From Eledone cirrhosa (lineage: Eukaryota): DNA of 64,000 bases. Where the stretch lies: NCBI GenBank assembly GCA_964016885.1, contig OZ024746.1, forward strand, positions 40,424,001-40,488,000, in the 5' to 3' direction. Position numbers and translations under genes: made by a program. The notes below the pieces were generated by a model. It did no database searches. It saw nothing but the letters and a program-made list of their open reading frames with translations, and was not told the DNA's origin. Of this stretch, positions 7,218 through 56,545 are shown piece by piece (position 1 is the first letter of the stretch; each line of letters opens with the position of its first letter).

Positions 7218-7730
7218 TTGCTAAAGAATCTCCCTGTACCTCTTGCTGGAAAGACTGAAAAGACTGCGGAATCTGCTACCCATGAAGTGATTGCCATTGG
7301 GGTACCAGAGGACAAGGCTGATCTTCAGGCATTTGCTGCCAGCTCAGCCAAAGACCTAGGCTGTGTTCCCCCAAAGGGTGCCCTCCGCCTTGGTCGACCT
7401 GGTCCAAAACCCAGACTCATCAGGCTGTCTTTCTCGGACCCCGCAGAGGCAACCTCATATCATCTGGCCTCTGCTAAAGCTGGGCGTGAAAATCGGATTA
7501 CCTTCCGAACACGCCCAGGCCTACCACCCCATGTACGTCCAAAACTACGTGCTGCAGCTTCCTTGAATCGGAACTCGGCACAAGATGAAAGTTTCAGTCT
7601 GCGTGATGATGGGCAGATCTGGAGGTTTGTCAAGGCTGGTGAAACGTGGAAGAGAGATACCAGCTGGTCTGAGTGTGATCTACCCGCAATAACTGGCAAT
7701 GTAAAAACTGCTACAACTCTGGGAAACTAA
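7218..7730 (+). CDS. LINE ORF1 C-terminal portion
   Basis: LRLGRPGPKPRLIRLSF resembles the RRM-like R(L/I)G...PR..(V/L).F segment of CR1/L2 ORF1 proteins; ends LGN* just upstream of ORF2. Confidence 0.6.
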   Translation: MLKNLPVPLAGKTEKTAESATHEVIAIGVPEDKADLQAFAASSAKDLGCVPPKGALRLGRPGPKPRLIRLSFSDPAEATSYHLASAKAGRENRITFRTRPGLPPHVRPKLRAAASLNRNSAQDESFSLRDDGQIWRFVKAGETWKRDTSWSECDLPAITGNVKTATTLGN

Positions 7731-7786
7731 ACCAGAACAACCTGCCACCCTCTACACACCATCATAAACTGCGAGCAGGGTACAAA

Positions 7787-10552
7787 TTGTTGTCATTAAA
7801 TGCTCGCAGTTTATGCAACAAGATACATCTGTTCGAATCCTACGTCAGAAGCATCGACCCTGACTTCATCACAGTCACAGAAACATGGGCACATTCCTTA
7901 CTCTGTGATGGGGTTTTCACCATTACTGGGTACAACCTTTTCCGCAAGGACCGCATTAACCGCCGTGGTGGTGGTGTGATGGTCTACGTTCGTTCAAACT
8001 TTTCGGTAATTCCTTGCGTTGATTTGAACGAATCACAGGAAGAAGTTTTTTTCTGTGACATACGTATGACCATGTCAACACTTCTGCTTGGTGTTGTTTA
8101 TCGCCCCCCAAACTACCATCAGGACACACAGCTTTGCGATATCCTCAGAGTTGCTGCCAAGAAAACAGCCACTTATGTGTTTATTGCAGGTGACTTCAAT
8201 CATCCTGAGATCGATTGGGAAACCTTTCGTTGGCCACAGGGTGCAAACGATTTCCTTGAACTAGTGCTGGACTCAAACTGGTCACAAGTAGTCACCTCTC
8301 CAACAAGAGGTGACAACACTTTGGACCTGATCTTCACCACTACTCCTGAAGTGGTTATCAGTTGTACTACTGAGGAACCTCTAGGCGACTCTGATCATGC
8401 TATGATCATTGCCAATCTGGCACTTGAGGGCAGCAACAAAAACCAGGGCCATCTCCAATCTGCTTGCTTTGATTGGAAGAGGGCGGATTGGAACTTGTAC
8501 TGCACTGAGCTACAGCGCCCAAACTGGCATGAGATGTATAACTCTGGAGATGTGAACTCTATACTCCAGAGCATCCTGGACTCAATATGGATAGCGTGTG
8601 CAGCATCAGTGCCACGGAAGCGGAAAAATAACCACCCCAAAAGTGCAATCTGGGAAACTTCAGCGGTCCGACTTGCCAGGAAAGAACGTTGGAACGCTGA
8701 ACGGGAATATAAACTGCATAGATCAGATGCCAACAGAAAAAAGCGGCATAAATCTTCTAACCATCTCAAGCAAGTGACAAAGAAGGCAGTGCTTGAATTT
8801 GAACAGTGCATCGCAACCAATCCTGACAGTAAGGTGTTCTGGAAATATGTTCATTCAAAGCAGAGACTTCACTCTCCAGTTGGTCCTCTTCGCAATCCCC
8901 ACACAAGCCAGATCACTGATGATCCCAAGGAATGCGCAGAACTCATTGCTGAGTGCTATGTAAGTATTTTTACTGTTGAAGACCAGAATGTACCATCTCC
9001 ACCATCTCTAACATCAAATTCCATAACAACTATGGAATTTACACCTGCAATGTTGCGACGTCACCTTAAGAATAAGCGCAACTATGCCTCCCCTGGTCTT
9101 GATGGTGTGACATACCTGCTTCTCAAACGTGGCGGGGATTTCCTTTTGCGCCAGCTTTCTTTTTTCTTTCAATACTGTCTCAGCAATGGTGCTACTCCGG
9201 AGCAGTGGAAAACTGCCAGTGTCATTCCCCTGTTCAAAAAGGGCAACCGCATGTCACCTGTCAACTATCGTCCAGTCAGTCTTACTAGCTGTATGGCCAA
9301 ACTGATGGAATCCTGTGTCAGAGAAACACTTTGGAACTTCTGGAGCTCTCACAGCCTCATCCGGCCCTCACAGTTTGGATTTATCCCTAACTCCAGCTGC
9401 TGTGATCAGCTTATCGAGTTTCTTGAGGACATCACCCGGATCACTGACAGCGGCTCATGGGTGGATGTTGTTTACCTTGACTTTGCTAAGGCTTTTAATT
9501 CTGTGCCACACAAAAGACTTATGGCAAAACTCTCTGCAATGGGTGTGAGGGATGATCTTTTCGACTGGCTGAAATCCTTCATTCTCAGCCGAAAGGAAGT
9601 AGTCACGGTTCTAGGACAGCATTCTTCACCATATGAGATGTCATCTGGTGTACCACAGGGATCTGTTCTTGGTCCTCTTTTGTTTGTGGCATATATTAAT
9701 GACATAGATGCCAACTTACAGAATGCCACAGTACTAAAATATGCAGATGACATCAAGCTGTACCTTGAAATCAAAAGGACTGATCCTGAAATTTACAACT
9801 CTTTCCTACAATCAGACCTGGACACAATGCAGCAATGGATCACAGACTGGCAACGGAAGCTGGCTGTGGACAAGTGTACCACCATGCATTTTGGAAGGAA
9901 AAATCCAGCGTCCAAATACTCCCTCCACAACACTGACATCAAAAAGTCCTCTTGTGAACGTGACCTGGGCATTACTGTCAGCAACGATTTGCGTTGGACA
10001 AAGCATGTCTCTAAGATTGTCAAGAAGGCCGAGGGTGTCTTGGCATCACTCAGCAAGACCTTTGTTAGCCGCTCTCCAGCCATCTATTTAAAACTGTATA
10101 CAGCTATGGTGCGACCACACTTGGAATTCGCATCATCAGTCTGGAACCCCTATCTTGCTCGGAACATTGACCTCCTGGAAACTGTTCAGAGACGTGCAAC
10201 CAAGCGCATACCCTCCATCAGACACCTACCATACTCTGAACGCCTTGCTTCCCTGGGCATGGATTCATTGAAGCTCCGACGTCTGGCAATGGACTTGGTG
10301 AATACCCACAAAGTTTTTAACCATCTCGCCAATTGCAACCCTGAGCGCCTCTTTGATCTTCATGTGTCTAACACACGTGGACATGCCTACAAGATAAGAA
10401 AACAGCACAGCTCCCATGACTTTCGCAGACATTTTTTCACGCTCAGAGTTGCTGAAGCATGGAACAAACTGCCTGCGTCAATTGTTAGCTGCCGAGACAC
10501 TGCATCCTTTAAGACACTCATGCTTCCCAAAATACGCCAAAACTACACCTGA
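7787..10552 (+). CDS. LINE ORF2: AP endonuclease + reverse transcriptase (frame open from 7679, no ATG at the start)
   Basis: APE motifs NARSL, VTETW, YRPP, GDFN, LDL and SDH. RT motifs NYRPVSLTS, YLDFAKAF, GVPQGSVLGPLLF, YADD and ERDLG. No stop codons. Confidence 0.95.
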   Translation: MLSLNARSLCNKIHLFESYVRSIDPDFITVTETWAHSLLCDGVFTITGYNLFRKDRINRRGGGVMVYVRSNFSVIPCVDLNESQEEVFFCDIRMTMSTLLLGVVYRPPNYHQDTQLCDILRVAAKKTATYVFIAGDFNHPEIDWETFRWPQGANDFLELVLDSNWSQVVTSPTRGDNTLDLIFTTTPEVVISCTTEEPLGDSDHAMIIANLALEGSNKNQGHLQSACFDWKRADWNLYCTELQRPNWHEMYNSGDVNSILQSILDSIWIACAASVPRKRKNNHPKSAIWETSAVRLARKERWNAEREYKLHRSDANRKKRHKSSNHLKQVTKKAVLEFEQCIATNPDSKVFWKYVHSKQRLHSPVGPLRNPHTSQITDDPKECAELIAECYVSIFTVEDQNVPSPPSLTSNSITTMEFTPAMLRRHLKNKRNYASPGLDGVTYLLLKRGGDFLLRQLSFFFQYCLSNGATPEQWKTASVIPLFKKGNRMSPVNYRPVSLTSCMAKLMESCVRETLWNFWSSHSLIRPSQFGFIPNSSCCDQLIEFLEDITRITDSGSWVDVVYLDFAKAFNSVPHKRLMAKLSAMGVRDDLFDWLKSFILSRKEVVTVLGQHSSPYEMSSGVPQGSVLGPLLFVAYINDIDANLQNATVLKYADDIKLYLEIKRTDPEIYNSFLQSDLDTMQQWITDWQRKLAVDKCTTMHFGRKNPASKYSLHNTDIKKSSCERDLGITVSNDLRWTKHVSKIVKKAEGVLASLSKTFVSRSPAIYLKLYTAMVRPHLEFASSVWNPYLARNIDLLETVQRRATKRIPSIRHLPYSERLASLGMDSLKLRRLAMDLVNTHKVFNHLANCNPERLFDLHVSNTRGHAYKIRKQHSSHDFRRHFFTLRVAEAWNKLPASIVSCRDTASFKTLMLPKIRQNYT

Positions 10553-24574: not shown

Positions 24575-25146
24575 TAAATATAAGTATGTATACGTATATA
24601 CATATATGTATACAGACGTACAGTAGTATGTATATATACATACATGCACACACATATATATATATATATATATGTACGTATGGATTTACCGAGCATTTAT
24701 TATAATGCTCGGTTTGTTTGTAAACAAACATCCCGAATTAAGCCGTACAGTGTTTAGCAACCATCGTTGCCCTTTTGTTCAACACTGACAAAGGAACGAT
24801 GTACTATACTTTCAGACGTTCAACCATCTGGCAGGAAGGTATATGGTGCTGACGATAGCTAATAAGCTTGAAACTAGTACATCGTTCCTTTGTCAGTGTT
24901 GAACAAAAGGGCAACGATGGTTGTTAAACACTGTATGGCTTAATTTGGGATGTTTGTTTACAAACAAACCGAGCATTATAATAAATGCTCGGTAAATCGA
25001 TACGTACATATATATATGTGTACATGTTTGTATATATGTACATACTACTGTACGTCTGTATACATATATGTATGTACATATACATACTTATATTTAAGTA
25101 ACAGCCGTACTAAGAGTGAGAAATGAAATTTCATTTCATTTTTTCC

Positions 25147-25153
<7 letters not shown>
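24575..25153 (+). mobile_element. Fold-back copy of a hammerhead-bearing repeat (family B): inverted arms 24575-24806 / 24875-25096
   Basis: About 225-bp near-perfect inverted arms; homologous to 53198-53295 plus 56170-56545. Confidence 0.8.
24844..24884 (+). ncRNA. Minimal type I hammerhead ribozyme motif (family B)
   Basis: UGGUG [CUGACGA] uAGCU-aaua-AGCUu [GAAA] CuaG [UA] CAUCG. Helix I has two G-U wobbles, helix II is 4 bp and the short helix III is palindromic. Predicted cleavage after 24879. Confidence 0.75.
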
Positions 25154-25184
<31 letters not shown>

Positions 25185-25210
25185 GTATATATATATATGT
25201 ATAAGAAAAG

Positions 25211-25243
<33 letters not shown>

Positions 25244-25250
25244 TATGTAT

Positions 25251-27398
25251 ATATAGACATAGAATATTCGAAAATATTCTGTATGTTTATAATAAACATT
25301 TTGAAGACCTAATCGCTATAGAATAGAATACGTCACGTATTACAATTAGATTCTCGATAAAAGCAAGGGAAGTAATCTACGCGTTTCATTCTCGTTAGAA
25401 ATCATCAGGACTACATATCCAGTGCTCTTATCGAGAATGACACAGCTAGAGACTTATAGAATACTTAGCTGTGTACAGGAACTGGTTTGAAAGAGCGGTT
25501 GCCGGTCCGGCAGAAATTAGAAATTGGAATAAATGCTCTGAAATAGCGATGTATATGTGAATATAGACATAGAATATTCGAAAATATTCTGTATGTTTAT
25601 AATAAACATTTTGAAGACCTAATCGCTATAGAATAGAATACGTCACGTATTACAATTAGATTCTCGATAAAAGCAAGGGAAGTAATCTACGCGTTTCATT
25701 CTCGTTAGAAATCATCAGGACTACATATCCAGTGCTCTTATCGAGAATGACACAGCTAGAGACTTATAGAATACTTAGCTGTGTACAGGAACTGGTTTGA
25801 AAGAGCGGTTGCCGGTCCGGCAGAAATTAGAAATTGGAATAAATGCTCTGAAATAGCGATATATATGTGAATATAGACATAGAATATTCGAAAATATTCT
25901 GTATGTTTATAATAAACATTTTGAAGACCTAATCGCTATAGAATAGAATACGTCACGTATTACAATTAGATTCTCGATAAAAGCAAGGGAAGTAATCTAC
26001 GCGTTTCATTCTCGTTAGAAATCATCAGGACTACATATCCAGTGCTCTTATCGAGAATGACACAGCTAGAGACTTATAGAATACTTAGCTGTGTACAGGA
26101 ACTGGTTTGAAAGAGCGGTTGCCGGTCCGGCAGAAATTAGAAATTGGAATAAATGCTCTGAAATAGCGATATATATGTGAATATAGACATAGAATATTCG
26201 AAAATATTCTGTATGTTTATAATAAACATTTTGAAGACCTAATCGCTATAGAATAGAATACGTCACGTATTACAATTAGATTCTCGATAAAAGCAAGGGA
26301 AGTAATCTACGCGTTTCATTCTCGTTAGAAATCATCAGGACTACATATCCAGTGCTCTTATCGAGAATGACACAGCTAGAGACTTATAGAATACTTAGCT
26401 GTGTACAGGAACTGGTTTGAAAGAGCGGTTGCCGGTCCGGCAGAAATTAGAAATTGGAATAAATGCTCTGAAATAGCGATATATATGTGAATATAGACAT
26501 AGAATATTCGAAAATATTCTGTATGTTTATAATAAACATTTTGAAGACCTAATCGCTATAGAATAGAATACGTCACGTATTACAATTAGATTCTCGATAA
26601 AAGCAAGGGAAGTAATCTACGCGTTTCATTCTCGTTAGAAATCATCAGGACTACATATCCAGTGCTCTTATCGAGAATGACACAGCTAGAGACTTATAGA
26701 ATACTTAGCTGTGTACAGGAACTGGTTTGAAAGAGCGGTTGCCGGTCCGGCAGAAATTAGAAATTGGAATAAATGCTCTGAAATAGCGATATATATGTGA
26801 ATATAGACATAGAATATTCGAAAATATTCTGTATGTTTATAATAAACATTTTGAAGACCTAATCGCTATAGAATAGAATACGTCACGTATTACAATTAGA
26901 TTCTCGATAAAAGCAAGGGAAGTAATCTACGCGTTTCATTCTCGTTAGAAATCATCAGGACTACATATCCAGTGCTCTTATCGAGAATGACACAGCTAGA
27001 GACTTATAGAATACTTAGCTGTGTACAGGAACTGGTTTGAAAGAGCGGTTGCCGGTCCGGCAGAAATTAGAAATTGGAATAAATGCTCTGAAATAGCGAT
27101 ATATATGTGAATATAGACATAGAATATTCGAAAATATTCTGTATGTTTATAATAAACATTTTGAAGACCTAATCGCTATAGAATAGAATACGTCACGTAT
27201 TACAATTAGATTCTCGATAAAAGCAAGGGAAGTAATCTACGCGTTTCATTCTCGTTAGAAATCATCAGGACTACATATCCAGTGCTCTTATCGAGAATGA
27301 CATTCTGTATGTTTATTATAAACATACAGAATATTTTCGAATATTCTATGTCTATATTCACATATATATCGCTATTTCAGAGCATTTATTCCAATTTC
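25251..27398 (-). repeat. 310-bp tandem array (6 full units + 192-bp partial + 82-bp inverted partial), each unit with a hammerhead ribozyme; retrozyme/Penelope-pLTR-like (family A)
   Basis: Unit starts ATATAGACAT at 25251, 25561, 25871, 26181, 26491, 26801 and 27111. Only one substitution noticed (25551 G/A). Confidence 0.92.
25372..25414 (-). ncRNA. Minimal type I hammerhead ribozyme motif (family A), first of 7 copies (also starting at 25682, 25992, 26302, 26612, 26922, 27232)
   Basis: Minus strand GUAGUC [CUGAUGA] uUUCU-aacg-AGAAu [GAAA] CgcG [UA] GAUUAC. Complete core, 6-bp helix I, palindromic ACGCGU helix III. Confidence 0.82.
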
Positions 27399-27407
27399 AT
27401 ATATATG

Positions 27408-27468
<61 letters not shown>

Positions 27469-33946: not shown

Positions 33947-36900
33947 CTATTGTCCTTTCCAGGGGTCAACTTGCATTTTAGCATACATATCGAAAAAACA
34001 AATTTGATAGTTTTTATCAGCATTGTTGTCCCAGTAGACATTATCACCAGCCTGGTAACAAACTGCAAACTGCATTTTAGTATTAAAGACTGTCGGAACA
34101 TTCATTTCAAAGGTGTATGTTTCGTATGGATATGTGTACTCTGTATTAGACAAACTAGCAGGTACATCAATGCAAGTCTTCCATCCATCAAAGCTGCATC
34201 GTATAAATACGTTTTTCTTTACATTTAAATTTTTAACTTTGATGCTACCAGTTAACATGAAGTCCTTATTAAAAACGTGTTCTAAAGCTACAAAGTCTCT
34301 CTCAAGGCGACTTTTAAAAGTGACGTAATCAGCAGCAGGTTTGGAAACATTCAAGCAAATAGCTGATTTTCTAATATGTTTGGTTTCTTTTATTGATGAA
34401 GCCATATCCCAAGCAGAGTTAGTTGAAAATGATGTTACACCTTTCTTTAATACACTTGGGTAGCATTTTGGTAAGACAGCTTCAGTTTCACTTGAACGGA
34501 ATTTAGAGAGCATTTCTTGCTGGATCGTATGGGTAGATACTATTTCATAGTTTTTACTGTCATTATTGTCCCAGTAAGTCTGATTATCACTTTTATAGCA
34601 GACTGCAAAAACGACATGCATGATTTCTTCAAAGGACACTGGCATGGTTAAGGCAAAGCTAAAAGTTTCATATTGATTCGGGAAGCTGCTAGGGGTATGT
34701 GTGGCAGGAATATCTACGGCTGTCTCCCAAAAATTAAATGAGCAACGGAGAAAAACAGATTTTTTATTCCCCATTGGTTTTATTTTGACAGTTCCAAGAA
34801 TTATGTTATTTCGAAGGAGTACATTTTCTAATGAAACGTATGTTGTTTCAAGTCTGTTACGAAATGTAACATAGTCAGCAGCTGGTTGGCGGAAGCGTAG
34901 GGAAAAGATTTGTTGAGTTGCCGGCGCCTCTTTATCATTTAAATTGGACAAATCTACCTGAGAACTTCTAGGTGATGATGATGATTGAGATGAAGATGTA
35001 GATCCATTTGGTGATGTCATTATAATCTTTGGAATATCTGAACTGATGGAACATTTGGGTCGAGCTGATTGAACATCTGAGCTGAGTTCTTCCTGTAATT
35101 CCTCCATCAAAGCCATTGAAAACATCTCACTAGTTTTCAATGTTGACTGACGCCTAAGCTTTGGTGATGGCAAAGGTTCATTTTCATCAGATTCAATTTG
35201 ATTTTCACTTTCTCTCAAAGATTTAGCAAGAATTTCTTTTGTTTCTAAAACTTCTTTATTGCTGGAAGTTGTGTTTACTGAACTACTGTCTTCAACTTCT
35301 TCATCTTTACTTTCTGATGGCGTACCTTCAGTTATAACATCTTTAACTTCTTTACATGAAGGAGAATTGGCAGAATCCTTTGATTGATCCAGGATATCTT
35401 TCTCTTTGGTAATTACATTTTTGATATCACTTGTGGTTATATCAGTTTGTGATGTGATGCTAGAGTCTGTTTCAGGAATATTTTTAGTTGGTTCTTCTTC
35501 TGACCCTGATTCTGCTTTTTGTAATGCATCAGTTTTGGAAATAGGGTAACCAAAATCAGGCTCAAGTATCACTTTTTTTTCTTCAGGGTCACTTAAGCTG
35601 AAACATTCAAGTTCATTTGACATCATACGAGGAAATTTGATCTCAGATTTGCTCTCTATGGGTCTTCCATGATTCTTCTCTTTAGAATTATTTTGTTTCT
35701 GAGATAAAGGGTGCCTGACTTTACTCAACAAATCAACTCTTACGTCTGATACAGGTGATGAACATGAAGCATCAGTATCACTATTAAGAGAAATATCTCT
35801 TTTAAATGAGGATAAATCTTTAGCAATGTCTTCAAATTCAAAAGATCCACTCCTATTAATTACTGGAGTTTGAGATTTCCTTTTAAATGAAGAATGTGTT
35901 GTGCTGGTTTTAATATCTGAATCTGTTATCTCATCCTGGCTACTGTGGCCACTTGATCCTTCTAAAATTGGAAATTTTTTTTCATTATACTTTGAAGGCA
36001 ACTGAGAAAACTCAGAAAAATGCTGATCTCTATCACCAGATGAATAATAATCACTTGTAATTGATTGATCTAGTAAATCATTATCATATGAAATATGCCC
36101 TCCATGCTGGAAGGAATCACTGTCATAAGATCCATGCAGTTGTTCATTGTTGTCTAGGAGGGAAATTCGTTCGTTCTCTACTGAACGATCATCATAACCA
36201 GATGAATGAGATATTGCTTCTTCCAGAAAGTGTGACTCATTCAGATTTGCAAGTAAGTTAGTATCTTCACTAATATCTAAAGAATGAGAACCATCTCTCT
36301 GGAAATAGATGTTTTCTTCATTCAGATCCAATAATTCACCTCCCGTTTCACTGACACCCATAAACTCTTCCTTGCTGAATCCTTCTTTTTCAAGAAGTTC
36401 TCGAAAATCAAGAAATTCCTCAGGAGGGGACGGAAATTCATCATTATTTTCATTTTTCTGCTCATCGTTATCTTCCAATGAAGCTTTATTAAAATGGCTT
36501 TCATTTTCATTTCTGTCATCTTTTTTCCCTACATCTCCATCGTTATCATGTGGAAAAGTAGAAGATAATTCACAGGGTGAAAAATATGGGACATCATGTT
36601 CAAATGATATCTGTCTCTCTATCTGTTCCTCTTCAAGGGGCAGGTCAACTGAATCAGATATTGTATCAAAATTACTGGAAGGATCATTATTTGTTGGTTC
36701 ATCTTCAAATGACACTCTTTTTGTTAGAATATATTTTCCAAAAGATGTCAGTGGATATTCTTTGAAACTTTCTTGAGGTGTCTCATTTTGGGAAATACAT
36801 TTTTGAGCATTGTCAATGCATGTAGATACAGTCTTATCTGCAAAATCAGATATATTTGAAGGAGAAGCAAGTTCCATCAATTTATTCTCTGGAGTCGGGG

Positions 36901-38287
36901 AGTCATGGGAACTGTCAGAATCAGGAAGGAAAAGGTCTGTAGAACACACAGTTTCTGAATCAGTAGATAGTTGGCAAGTTCTTTTACTTTGTATAGGCGG
37001 TGTAGACTCAAGGAATGTTTCTTCATCATCAGCATCATGCTCATCATCATCTTCCCAAAGGTAAGTATGTGAGTCATGAGATAGCAGTTGTTGTTTTTCT
37101 GCTACATTAGGATATCCATCAAAAGAACAATGATCATAAGATTCCTCTGAAAGAGGGTTGTCTACAACACGCACTTGGACCATTTTGTCTTCATCTAATG
37201 TTGTATAAGAACTGTTTGTGCTGATCTGGAATTTAGGTGCATTGCTATTAATTGTTTTGTGATATGGATAGTCATTATAACCTGGAGCTGTATCCCATTT
37301 ATCTGTCAGTGACTGAGAACTGTCTGTAAATGCTTCATTGTTGTGTACCAAAGTGGAAATAATGCATTCCTTGAAGACCTTATAACTTCCATTAGAATCT
37401 CTCTCTACAACTGTCTTCTCCTCCTTATGCAGTGAGCCAGAACTGTGTTTAAAACCCTCATTAATATAGTCAAATACTTTGGGTTTATCATTCACTTCTT
37501 CTGGTAAATTGAAAGACTGATTTCGGAGGCTATCTAATACAGTTTCATTTGCAATGTCAACAAGAACTGATTCGTGGATTTCCTCTGGTGGATCAACATT
37601 GGCAGTGATGAGACGTTTGGGTTGTTCTAAACAGACACAGCTTTGAGTGACTTCAGGTTTTGTTTCTATTATCTTAGCAACTGTGGGAGTAAGTTCAATA
37701 ACAGGTGACAACCTTACTTCGATAAAAGGAGGGGTTTCCTCTCTGGCAAAACGGGTACTAAATTCATCAGTTGGAGTCTTTTCTCTTAAGAAATCTGGTT
37801 GGTCTAATTGTCCTTGTTCCGTTGTGTAAGATATATAAGCTTTCGTTGGTGTTCCACCATACTTTTTCGAAAGGATTGGTTGACGGTCATTGTTATTAGG
37901 GCTGCCATCCTCGATAGACATGTGCTTGGAAAGAGATCTGTTTTTAAATCGTTCTTTGAGTTCTTTTATAATGGGGTCATCACTATATCCTGAAATAGCA
38001 TTTGGAGGTTTCGTGTAGACTGGATGAATTAAGGGATTTGTATTTGAGTTTGTATGTGCACAAATCTTTGTAGGTGAAGAAAGGAGCACGTTAATTTTCT
38101 CAAAACTGTGCGTTCTTTCTTCATTATTAGATTCAGGTTGTCTCTCAATAATATGGAGTTCGTGGGGTTTCAACGAGGCCGCGATTGGCGTTTTCTCTTC
38201 CAGGGGCTTCGCCGCTGATTTTGAAAAGTCACCGTTTTCATCGTCATCAGCATGACAACATCCCATGCGAGAGAAATAATTCCCCAT
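33947..38287 (-). CDS. PPP1R3-like protein phosphatase 1 glycogen-targeting subunit, 1446 aa, with two tandem CBM21 domains and a long acidic/Ser-rich disordered region
   Basis: Two copies of PAADYVTF..RLE...V.LE.V / G(T/S)(V/I)K(I/V)K....KK.VF.RCSF..W / FAVCY......YWDNN..KNY, the CBM21 signatures of PPP1R3B/C. RVxF motif KRVSF at aa 523-527. Uninterrupted 4.3-kb ORF. Confidence 0.9.
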   Translation of the reverse strand: MGNYFSRMGCCHADDDENGDFSKSAAKPLEEKTPIAASLKPHELHIIERQPESNNEERTHSFEKINVLLSSPTKICAHTNSNTNPLIHPVYTKPPNAISGYSDDPIIKELKERFKNRSLSKHMSIEDGSPNNNDRQPILSKKYGGTPTKAYISYTTEQGQLDQPDFLREKTPTDEFSTRFAREETPPFIEVRLSPVIELTPTVAKIIETKPEVTQSCVCLEQPKRLITANVDPPEEIHESVLVDIANETVLDSLRNQSFNLPEEVNDKPKVFDYINEGFKHSSGSLHKEEKTVVERDSNGSYKVFKECIISTLVHNNEAFTDSSQSLTDKWDTAPGYNDYPYHKTINSNAPKFQISTNSSYTTLDEDKMVQVRVVDNPLSEESYDHCSFDGYPNVAEKQQLLSHDSHTYLWEDDDEHDADDEETFLESTPPIQSKRTCQLSTDSETVCSTDLFLPDSDSSHDSPTPENKLMELASPSNISDFADKTVSTCIDNAQKCISQNETPQESFKEYPLTSFGKYILTKRVSFEDEPTNNDPSSNFDTISDSVDLPLEEEQIERQISFEHDVPYFSPCELSSTFPHDNDGDVGKKDDRNENESHFNKASLEDNDEQKNENNDEFPSPPEEFLDFRELLEKEGFSKEEFMGVSETGGELLDLNEENIYFQRDGSHSLDISEDTNLLANLNESHFLEEAISHSSGYDDRSVENERISLLDNNEQLHGSYDSDSFQHGGHISYDNDLLDQSITSDYYSSGDRDQHFSEFSQLPSKYNEKKFPILEGSSGHSSQDEITDSDIKTSTTHSSFKRKSQTPVINRSGSFEFEDIAKDLSSFKRDISLNSDTDASCSSPVSDVRVDLLSKVRHPLSQKQNNSKEKNHGRPIESKSEIKFPRMMSNELECFSLSDPEEKKVILEPDFGYPISKTDALQKAESGSEEEPTKNIPETDSSITSQTDITTSDIKNVITKEKDILDQSKDSANSPSCKEVKDVITEGTPSESKDEEVEDSSSVNTTSSNKEVLETKEILAKSLRESENQIESDENEPLPSPKLRRQSTLKTSEMFSMALMEELQEELSSDVQSARPKCSISSDIPKIIMTSPNGSTSSSQSSSSPRSSQVDLSNLNDKEAPATQQIFSLRFRQPAADYVTFRNRLETTYVSLENVLLRNNIILGTVKIKPMGNKKSVFLRCSFNFWETAVDIPATHTPSSFPNQYETFSFALTMPVSFEEIMHVVFAVCYKSDNQTYWDNNDSKNYEIVSTHTIQQEMLSKFRSSETEAVLPKCYPSVLKKGVTSFSTNSAWDMASSIKETKHIRKSAICLNVSKPAADYVTFKSRLERDFVALEHVFNKDFMLTGSIKVKNLNVKKNVFIRCSFDGWKTCIDVPASLSNTEYTYPYETYTFEMNVPTVFNTKMQFAVCYQAGDNVYWDNNADKNYQICFFDMYAKMQVDPWKGQ

Positions 38288-38584
38288 TCTTCTTTATTAT
38301 TACACAGAAGAATCTAAAAAAGAAAATAAACACCATAAAAATTTTGCGACAAAAACCACGTTCGGCAAAGCCGAAAATAAACGTCCTTGAGCTTAACTAC
38401 TTTGGCAGGAAGCAACGTCAAGGTCACTTGTGTTTTTCTCTACTACACATCATCGCTAGCGCACACATGTGTTTATAGACCTGTTGCATAGCGTCAGTAG
38501 GCACACAAAATCCCCTCCCACACCAAAATATAAAGAAAGAATAAGAATGATGCATCTTATAACAATAATATTCAATAATAATAA

Positions 38585-56169: not shown

Positions 56170-56545
56170 TATATGTACGTATGGGTTTACCGAACATTTA
56201 TTATAATGCTCGGTTTGTTTGTAAACAAACAGCCCAAATTATTAGCCGTACAGTGTTCGGCAACCATCGTTGCCATTTTGTTCAACACTGACTAAGGAAC
56301 GATGAACTAGTTTCTACCTTATTAGCTGTCATCAGCACCATATACCTTCCTGTCAGTTGATTGAACGTTTGAAAGTATATACTTTCCTTATGCATATTAA
56401 TGGCTGAGTAGCCTAATTTACATATCGAGTGAGTTAGTCGGCCGGGTGTACCGAAAACGATAAATGGAAAAAATGAAATTTCATTTCTCACTCTTAGTAC
56501 GGCTGATACTTAAATATAAGTACATACATATATGTATACATATAT
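56170..56545 (-). mobile_element. Second copy of hammerhead repeat family B (its other part lies at 53198-53295, left of the RTE); variant hammerhead at 56300-56340
   Basis: Minus strand UGGUG CUGAUGA cagcuaauaaggua GAAA CUAG UU CAUCG. Flanks are homologous to 24670-25150. Confidence 0.78.

What the first reader, a model, noticed from the sequence alone, without database searches (positions are those of the whole stretch)
25251..27302. 310-bp tandem array carrying seven hammerhead ribozymes: candidate retrozyme/circular-RNA locus
Seen: every unit contains on the minus strand GUAGUC-CUGAUGA-uUUCUaacgAGAAu-GAAA-CGCG-UA-GAUUAC. This is a full hammerhead core in type I topology with a GUA cleavage triplet (first cut between 25378 and 25377, then every 310 nt). 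Helix I extends via ATTCTCGATAAGAGCA / TGCTTTTATCGAGAAT. Its irregular pairs are G-U on the minus strand but A-C on the plus strand, which indicates the functional strand. Units are almost identical and have no meaningful ORF. Established: minimal type I hammerheads with a palindromic short helix III occur in Penelope-like element pLTRs and metazoan non-LTR retrozymes, cleave as dimers, and give small circular RNAs. Inference: a read-through transcript would self-process into ~310-nt monomers or circles mobilised in trans. I cannot tell whether this family has been described. The U-U pair at the base of helix II is non-canonical and may reduce activity.
Basis: partly seen in the sequence, partly recalled or inferred. 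Interest (0 to 1): 0.88.

Follow-up and report, generated by a model that had tools for sequence, protein, structure and literature searches.

The report
Young ribozyme-carrying parasite of Penelope retrotransposons
The array is one insertion of a young, non-coding 310-base repeat present in about 16,000 copies, each predicted to fold into a self-cutting hammerhead RNA, and it is likely spread by a Penelope-type retrotransposon enzyme copying round and round a small RNA circle, a route proposed before that this genome would make testable.

Summary
Observation confirmed: 6.6 units of 310 bp with seven type I hammerheads on the minus strand. The fold is backed by compensatory changes across older relatives, including a C3-G8/U3-A8 core swap. 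The family has about 16,000 near-identical units. 54 of 67 loci have two inverted arms, and 52 of 52 complete ones have one tail end and one short end, the signature of Penelope-like (PLE) insertion. Both arms share one haplotype in 51 of 55 loci (7% expected by chance), and arrays run across the cut site. This favours rolling reverse transcription of one RNA circle, though a few loci fit an uncut multimer better. An A>G excess on the ribozyme strand (possible RNA editing) weakened on replication. Cleavage, expression and the partner PLE are not shown. Verdict: new member of the known animal non-LTR retrozymes, probably in an octopod.

The parts
25251..27302 (-). Long arm: 6.6 head-to-tail 310-bp units, ribozyme strand minus. 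Its left (RNA 3') 'short' end at unit position about 300-310/1 merges into (TA)n
25350..25439 (-). Hammerhead domain of unit 1 (distal and proximal helix I, core, helix II with U-U at its base, palindromic helix III); repeats every 310 bp, seven copies
25377..25378 (-). Predicted cleavage site after GUA; others at 25688|7, 25998|7, 26308|7, 26618|7, 26928|7, 27238|7
   Evidence: cleavage itself not tested
27303..27308 (.). Centre junction between the arms; the filler matches the unit's own stem at unit positions about 26-49
27309..27398 (+). Short inverted arm (unit 270-310 plus 1-49); its outer 30-40 bp (about 27367-27398) is the PLE-type tail
25150..25255 (.). Left (TA)n target microsatellite
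27399..27456 (.). Right (TA)n target microsatellite
24641..25150 (+). Neighbouring, unrelated hammerhead element (core 24849-24879) with its own inverted arm (24641-24806); the array sits in the (TA)n at its 3' end

Best explanation
The array is one insertion of a non-coding, hammerhead-bearing 310-bp family of about 16,000 units with Penelope-type ends, likely made when a Penelope-like reverse transcriptase-endonuclease cut a (TA)n target and copied repeatedly around a single circular RNA monomer. Shown: the fold and its covariation, the two inverted arms, one tail end plus one short end, the (TA)n targets, and one haplotype per locus. Inferred: transcripts self-cleave (probably as dimers through the ACGCGU palindrome) and are ligated to 310-nt circles. 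Both target strands then prime cDNA at two fixed internal sites about 135 and 165 nt 3' of the cut, one site per strand; the short-end site is an AU-repeat that could pair with the target. Each cDNA rolls for a variable number of turns, and the two are joined at the centre. Some circles may be A-to-I edited before copying (weakly supported).
For: Covariation in 26 copies from four or five subfamilies: 90.8% of cells paired, 20 of 27 pairs change on both sides, slid controls 36-50%; core pair 3-8 is U-A 16, C-G 9, other 1. 15,995 exact matches to a unit 24-mer, reversed control 0; 992 exact (TA)n-tail junctions. Two inverted arms in 54 of 67 loci. One tail plus one short end in 52 of 52 complete two-arm loci, and (TA)4 at 103 of 106 outer ends; 11 of 11 simple two-arm loci in the set not picked by tail. 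These match PLE features (PMC8557442) and the two internal start sites and both-strand extension seen in vitro (PMC11167929). Arms share a haplotype in 31 of 33 and 20 of 22 loci against 7% for random pairs; 47 haplotypes in 112 loci. A variant shared by some but not all units occurs in only 8 of 94 loci. Inner ends do not pile up at the cut site (5 of 108 in that bin). Old subfamilies are mostly 1-2 units while young arms reach over 21, against slow later expansion. A near-identical-copy PLE family with hammerhead, tail and (TA)n ends is present.
Against: No autonomous PLE with a matching terminal repeat was found among about six families inspected. L166 and L149 show mirror-image haplotype blocks, L141 a block switch, and L131, L132, L152 periodic variants; L186 and L205 differ between arms. 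These fit ordered multimer templates or later DNA duplication. In vitro, a PLE used unprocessed RNA and did not need its hammerhead (PMC11167929); only 1 of 9 predicted frog retrozyme dimers cleaved (10.64898/2026.07.22.740005). The canonical G10.1-C11.1 pair is absent and Rfam is far below threshold. A>G bias: 15 vs 3 (p 0.001) in the first 67 loci, but 8 vs 2 (p 0.05) in 52 new loci, only 1 of 7 new variants, 10 vs 4 (p 0.06) in the 107 position-listed loci, and 7 vs 5 loci for rare variants; selection for G-U pairs could also give it.
Confidence: 0.65

Rival explanations
1. Same PLE-driven, two-arm insertion, but the template is a long uncut linear transcript of an existing array; the hammerhead is slow or serves another step.
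For: Mirror blocks in L166 and L149 are what two primings on one ordered multimer give. A homogeneous parent gives homogeneous daughters. Unprocessed RNA was the main PLE substrate in vitro, and minimal PLE hammerheads cleave poorly (PMC4209133).
Against: It gives no route for a new variant to fill a whole array, yet 47 haplotypes are fixed across 112 loci and the same A>G changes recur on several backgrounds. L032 has 7 of 7 differences A>G, at 15-16 of 15-16 copies covering each site, in both arms. Arms over 21 units need equally long parents.
Confidence: 0.24
2. Short copies insert first and then grow into satellites by unequal crossing-over and gene conversion (the model discussed by Li et al. 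2026).
For: Periodic shared variants in three arrays over 20 units long suggest some later duplication.
Against: Single-unit variants are almost all singletons; both arms share haplotype and unit length (311 in both arms at two loci); older subfamilies are shorter, not longer.
Confidence: 0.09
3. An ordinary satellite or assembly fold-back artefact with a chance hammerhead-like motif.
For: Rfam score far below threshold.
Against: Covariation; the two arms have different ends and unique flanks; a DNA run of the same or a very near organism holds the unit at very high depth.
Confidence: 0.02

Closest known systems
Animal non-LTR retrozymes (Cervera and de la Pena 2020, PMC7229834; Li et al. 2026, 10.64898/2026.07.22.740005)
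   Same: Tandem 150-450 bp non-coding units, a type I hammerhead in each, GC under 50% (34% here), thousands of copies, co-occurring PLEs; U-U at the base of helix II as in axolotl HHR_Amex2.
   Different: No sequence relative found outside this animal group's runs. The two-arm, tail-plus-short-end layout in (TA)n is not described for retrozymes in the main texts I read (supplements not seen). Circular RNA not shown here.
Endonuclease-positive Penelope-like elements (Neptune, Hydra, Naiad; PAc Poseidon) (PMC8557442, PMC11167929, PMC4209133)
   Same: Inverted 5'-truncated arm, 30-40 bp tail at one end, (TA)n targets, 3' ends downstream of a hammerhead, palindromic helix III, U3-A8 core variant.
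   Different: No ORF; up to more than 21 full units per arm; strict one-tail-one-short pairing, whereas PAc in vitro showed no strand difference in start site; no matching autonomous partner found.
Non-autonomous Chlamys elements such as MRC1 (PMC8557442 passage)
   Same: Non-autonomous PLE derivatives giving multicopy head-to-tail insertions.
   Different: Chlamys mostly lack hammerheads and their derivatives match an autonomous family at the 3' end.
LINE-1 twin priming (recalled, not tested)
   Same: The second target strand primes internally and gives an inverted arm.
   Different: Here both priming sites are fixed and both arms hold overlapping, multi-unit copies.

Membership tests
Type I hammerhead ribozyme | Conserved core CUGANGA, GAAA, UH | tested here: met
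   All seven units; invariant in 116-117 young loci except N7
Type I hammerhead ribozyme | Three helices with compensatory change; 3-8 core pair | tested here: met
   copies were picked by a core pattern that allowed all four 3/8 combinations
Type I hammerhead ribozyme | Canonical G10.1-C11.1 pair | tested here: not met
   U-U in the window and in 94 of 117 loci, A-U in 23; unpaired in 17 of 26 aligned copies. A known exception cleaves
Type I hammerhead ribozyme | Reaches an Rfam gathering score | tested here: not met
   HH9 15.8 bits against 52
Type I hammerhead ribozyme | Loop 1-loop 2 tertiary contact | not tested
   No model built
Type I hammerhead ribozyme | Self-cleavage | not testable with these tools
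   Needs an in vitro assay
Animal non-LTR retrozyme | Tandem 150-450 bp units, hammerhead in each, non-coding, GC under 50% | tested here: met
Animal non-LTR retrozyme | Dispersed, mobile family | tested here: met
   15,995 matches; many contigs
Animal non-LTR retrozyme | Expressed as linear and circular monomers | not testable with these tools
   Needs RNA data or bench work
Animal non-LTR retrozyme | Target-site duplication over 4 bp when present | tested here: inconclusive
   Hidden in (TA)n
Non-autonomous Penelope-like element | Inverted 5'-truncated arm, 30-40 bp tail at one end, microsatellite target | tested here: met
Non-autonomous Penelope-like element | Autonomous RT plus GIY-YIG elements in the same genome | tested here: met
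   796-aa ORF with RVT_1 and GIY-YIG; three large families
Non-autonomous Penelope-like element | Sequence match to the terminal repeat of an autonomous partner | tested here: inconclusive
   None among 45 + 11 PLE loci and other fragments; the search covered only part of the genome's PLE families

The most novel reading that the evidence does not exclude
About 2,000 fresh insertions each record one RNA circle being reverse-transcribed round and round from two fixed start sites, one per target strand, with ADAR edits on the circle written into every unit. That would be a genomic record of viroid-like RNA circles that are edited, selected as RNA and fixed back into DNA.
Probability: 0.3. Interest if true: 0.8.

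Novelty: new member of a known kind. Interest (0 to 1): 0.55.

Why it matters
That retrozymes ride on PLE enzymes and that RNA circles template more-than-unit cDNA were proposed in 2014 and 2020 but rest on co-occurrence and terminal-repeat similarity. How PLEs make inverted arms and tails is called unresolved in PMC8557442. A family this young and numerous, with stereotyped ends and one haplotype per insertion, lets both questions be tested on existing genomes and with a short RNA in vitro. It also occupies about 5 Mb as thousands of long inverted repeats.

Tried and rejected
Expression: no RNA holder listed among public runs. The very high depth in run X1 first looked like RNA; rejected, because X1 covers non-coding single-copy DNA at depth 7-13 with about 100% identity, so it behaves as DNA and the ratio is of the order of the copy number. 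Runs X4 and X6 each hold one 340-nt contig (unit plus 30), which a circle or a tandem array would both give; their kind is not on record and they cover little but repeats of the control stretch, so no inference. Partner search: ORFs in 20 + 17 flanking regions, three protein searches, 11 full-length PLE regions (50, 51) and a census of about 1 Mb (58-62) gave no matching terminal repeat. Hits to unit 226-310 were a third subfamily, not a partner. A PLE ORF beside the array in L159 is a separate insertion across (TA)n. A tail pattern found 0 matches in metagenome and viral contigs. No tRNA gene in the window. Rfam miRNA hits are low-complexity noise. ADAR editing as an established result: rejected after replication; neighbour context is not significant (5' G 1 of 16 against 15 of 92).

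Full report
Observation. The array is real: period 310, 6.7 copies, 99% matches, seven hammerhead cores on the minus strand at 25408 + 310n, first predicted cut 25378|25377. The domain folds far better than shuffles (z = -4.2). There is no ORF over 30 aa. Rfam recognises it only weakly (HH9, 15.8 bits against 52).

Is the ribozyme fold under selection? The genome holds older subfamilies at about 70% identity. In 26 aligned copies (one young copy with a one-base insertion that upset the first alignment was dropped), 90.8% of cells pair, 20 of 27 pairs change on both sides, and slid controls pair at 36-50%. The core 3-8 pair is U-A in 16, C-G in 9 and mismatched in 1; the U3-A8 variant is known from PLE hammerheads (PMC4209133). 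Related copies can beat the shuffle control without structure, so the slid control and the core swap carry the weight. In 116-117 young loci the core varies only at N7 and at 10.1, where U>A restores pairing in 23; with 40 of 310 sites variable this alone is not significant. A U-U base to helix II also occurs in axolotl HHR_Amex2, which cleaves 22% as a monomer and better as a dimer (PMC7229834). Helix III is the palindrome ACGCGU, able to form a 6-bp duplex. Cleavage is not shown.

Family and insertion anatomy. The 3.0-Gb genome has 15,995 exact matches to a unit 24-mer and 992 exact (TA)n-tail junctions. I estimate about 2,000 loci: 100 listed matches fall in 15 loci, and 8 of those 15 are in the junction list. 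I analysed 67 loci: 12 picked by BLAST score, all 15 listed by position on the start of C1, and 40 from the tail list. 54 have two inverted arms, 12 one arm (some cut by the fetch edge) and 1 is complex. The outer ends are the RNA 3' ends. In 52 of 52 complete two-arm loci one end lies at unit 267-281 (tail) and the other at about 300-310/1 (short end); 103 of 106 outer ends abut (TA)4. The tail end was selected for in 40 loci, but the short partner end was not, and 11 of 11 simple two-arm loci in the position-listed set agree. Arms average 4.9 and 3.3 units and reach over 21. An inverted truncated copy, a 30-40 bp tail at one end and (TA)n targets are PLE hallmarks (PMC8557442). A purified PLE protein cuts and extends both strands and starts at two internal sites flanking the tail, downstream of the hammerhead (PMC11167929). 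The strict one-site-per-end pairing goes beyond what I read there. Autonomous PLE-like families are abundant; one has near-identical copies and the same layout. None inspected matches the unit, so the partner is unidentified. The closest named relatives of that family's protein are from Octopus vulgaris (69% over 88% of the query), and a window repeat looks like an octopus SINE (recalled), so the host is probably an octopod.

What was the template? Units differ by 0.5 within an arm, 0.3 between arms and 4.8 between loci (71 units, 12 loci). Arms share a haplotype in 31 of 33 loci (26 of the 31 non-majority) and 20 of 22 in 52 further loci, against 7% for random pairs; there are 47 haplotypes in 112 loci. 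Variants shared by some but not all units occur in 7 of 48 and 1 of 46 loci. Inner ends do not gather at the cut site (5 of 108 in that bin; the first and last bins are distorted by BLAST), so the template ran across it: a ligated circle or an uncut multimer. Repeated fixation of new variants across whole arrays needs a one-unit bottleneck followed by amplification, which rolling reverse transcription of a circle gives directly. This was proposed in PMC4209133 and PMC7229834. Against it, L166 and L149 carry mirror-image blocks, L141 a block switch, three very long arrays periodic variants, and L186 and L205 differ between arms, so multimer templates or later duplication act at least sometimes. 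PAc used unprocessed RNA in vitro, and 8 of 9 frog retrozyme dimers did not cleave. Old subfamilies are short and young ones long, which argues against slow local expansion.

Editing. Locus-fixed changes on the ribozyme strand were A>G 15 against U>C 3 in the first 67 loci (p 0.001), while single-unit variants were 7 against 15. The window array itself carries A>G at unit 143 and 177 in all seven units. Several A>G sites recur on different backgrounds, and L032 has 7 of 7. In 52 new loci the count was 8 against 2 (p 0.05), only 1 of 7 newly seen variants was A>G, the 107 position-listed loci gave 10 against 4 (p 0.06), and rare variants hit 7 against 5 loci. Selection for G-U pairs is a rival cause. 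I put ADAR editing at about 0.4; heavy editing in cephalopods is recalled.

Comparison and novelty. This meets the sequence-level definition of an animal non-LTR retrozyme and behaves like a non-autonomous PLE; expression as circles, cleavage and partner homology are open. Searches for a cephalopod case or for edited, two-armed retrozymes listed none, but the library lacks most subscription journals. Read: 10.64898/2026.07.22.740005 parts 1-3 of 5; PMC7229834 parts 2-4 of 6; PMC11167929 and PMC4209133 parts 1-2 of 4; PMC8557442 passages and section 11; PMC6155905 passages; all others as listings only. Supplements were not seen (that of PMC7229834 was unreadable) and may list cephalopod examples or inverted layouts. 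The scan's index had no sequence look-alike and nothing on this genome; one unchecked note describes a ribozyme-free 334-bp tandem element with PLE-type ends in another genome.

Verdict. New member of a known kind; retrozyme mobilised by PLE machinery about 0.95; single-circle rolling as the main route 0.65; interest 0.55, mainly because thousands of fresh, stereotyped insertions make the circle-template and tail questions testable.

Noticed in passing
window 24641-25150 and 56180-56530; L032:8870; L077:147: A second hammerhead family (core 24849 +, another copy at 56335 -), also U-U at the base of helix II with a palindromic helix III, an inverted arm and tandem copies in L032; likely another retrozyme.
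   Followed up: partly
L042-L067, L033:7366, L034:773, L037:9649: Older subfamilies of the same element (about 70% to the window unit; 3303 first-look candidates), most with a U3-A8 core and mostly 1-2 units long.
   Followed up: yes
L168-L170 (G000 C4, C11, C2): A PLE-like family with many copies 99-100% identical in a 208-aa piece, 1,240-aa open frame, hammerhead, about 57-nt tail, (TA)n ends and inverted pairs; no Pfam hit. Best candidate for a currently active mobiliser, but no sequence match to the unit.
   Followed up: partly
about 1 Mb of fetched DNA: Some 20 further hammerhead-like motif groups, several recurring at PLE 3' ends and piled up in shared (TA)n tracts.
   Followed up: no
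L166, L149, L141: Haplotype blocks inside arms, mirror-symmetric from the outer ends in two loci; not explained by a single monomer circle.
   Followed up: partly
L032: All 7 fixed differences from the family majority are A>G on the ribozyme strand, in both arms; looks like one hyper-edited template.
   Followed up: partly
runs X4, X5, X6: The unit occurs with 2 differences in contigs filed under three other coded organism labels and studies; related animals, mixed samples or wider spread cannot be told apart.
   Followed up: partly
window 33950-38293 (-): 1,448-aa open frame with two CBM_21 domains, like a glycogen-targeting PP1 subunit (name recalled); on the ribozyme strand 6.6 kb upstream of the array, so read-through is conceivable.
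   Followed up: no
window 7679-10549 (+): 957-aa LINE-type open frame with endonuclease and RT domains.
   Followed up: no
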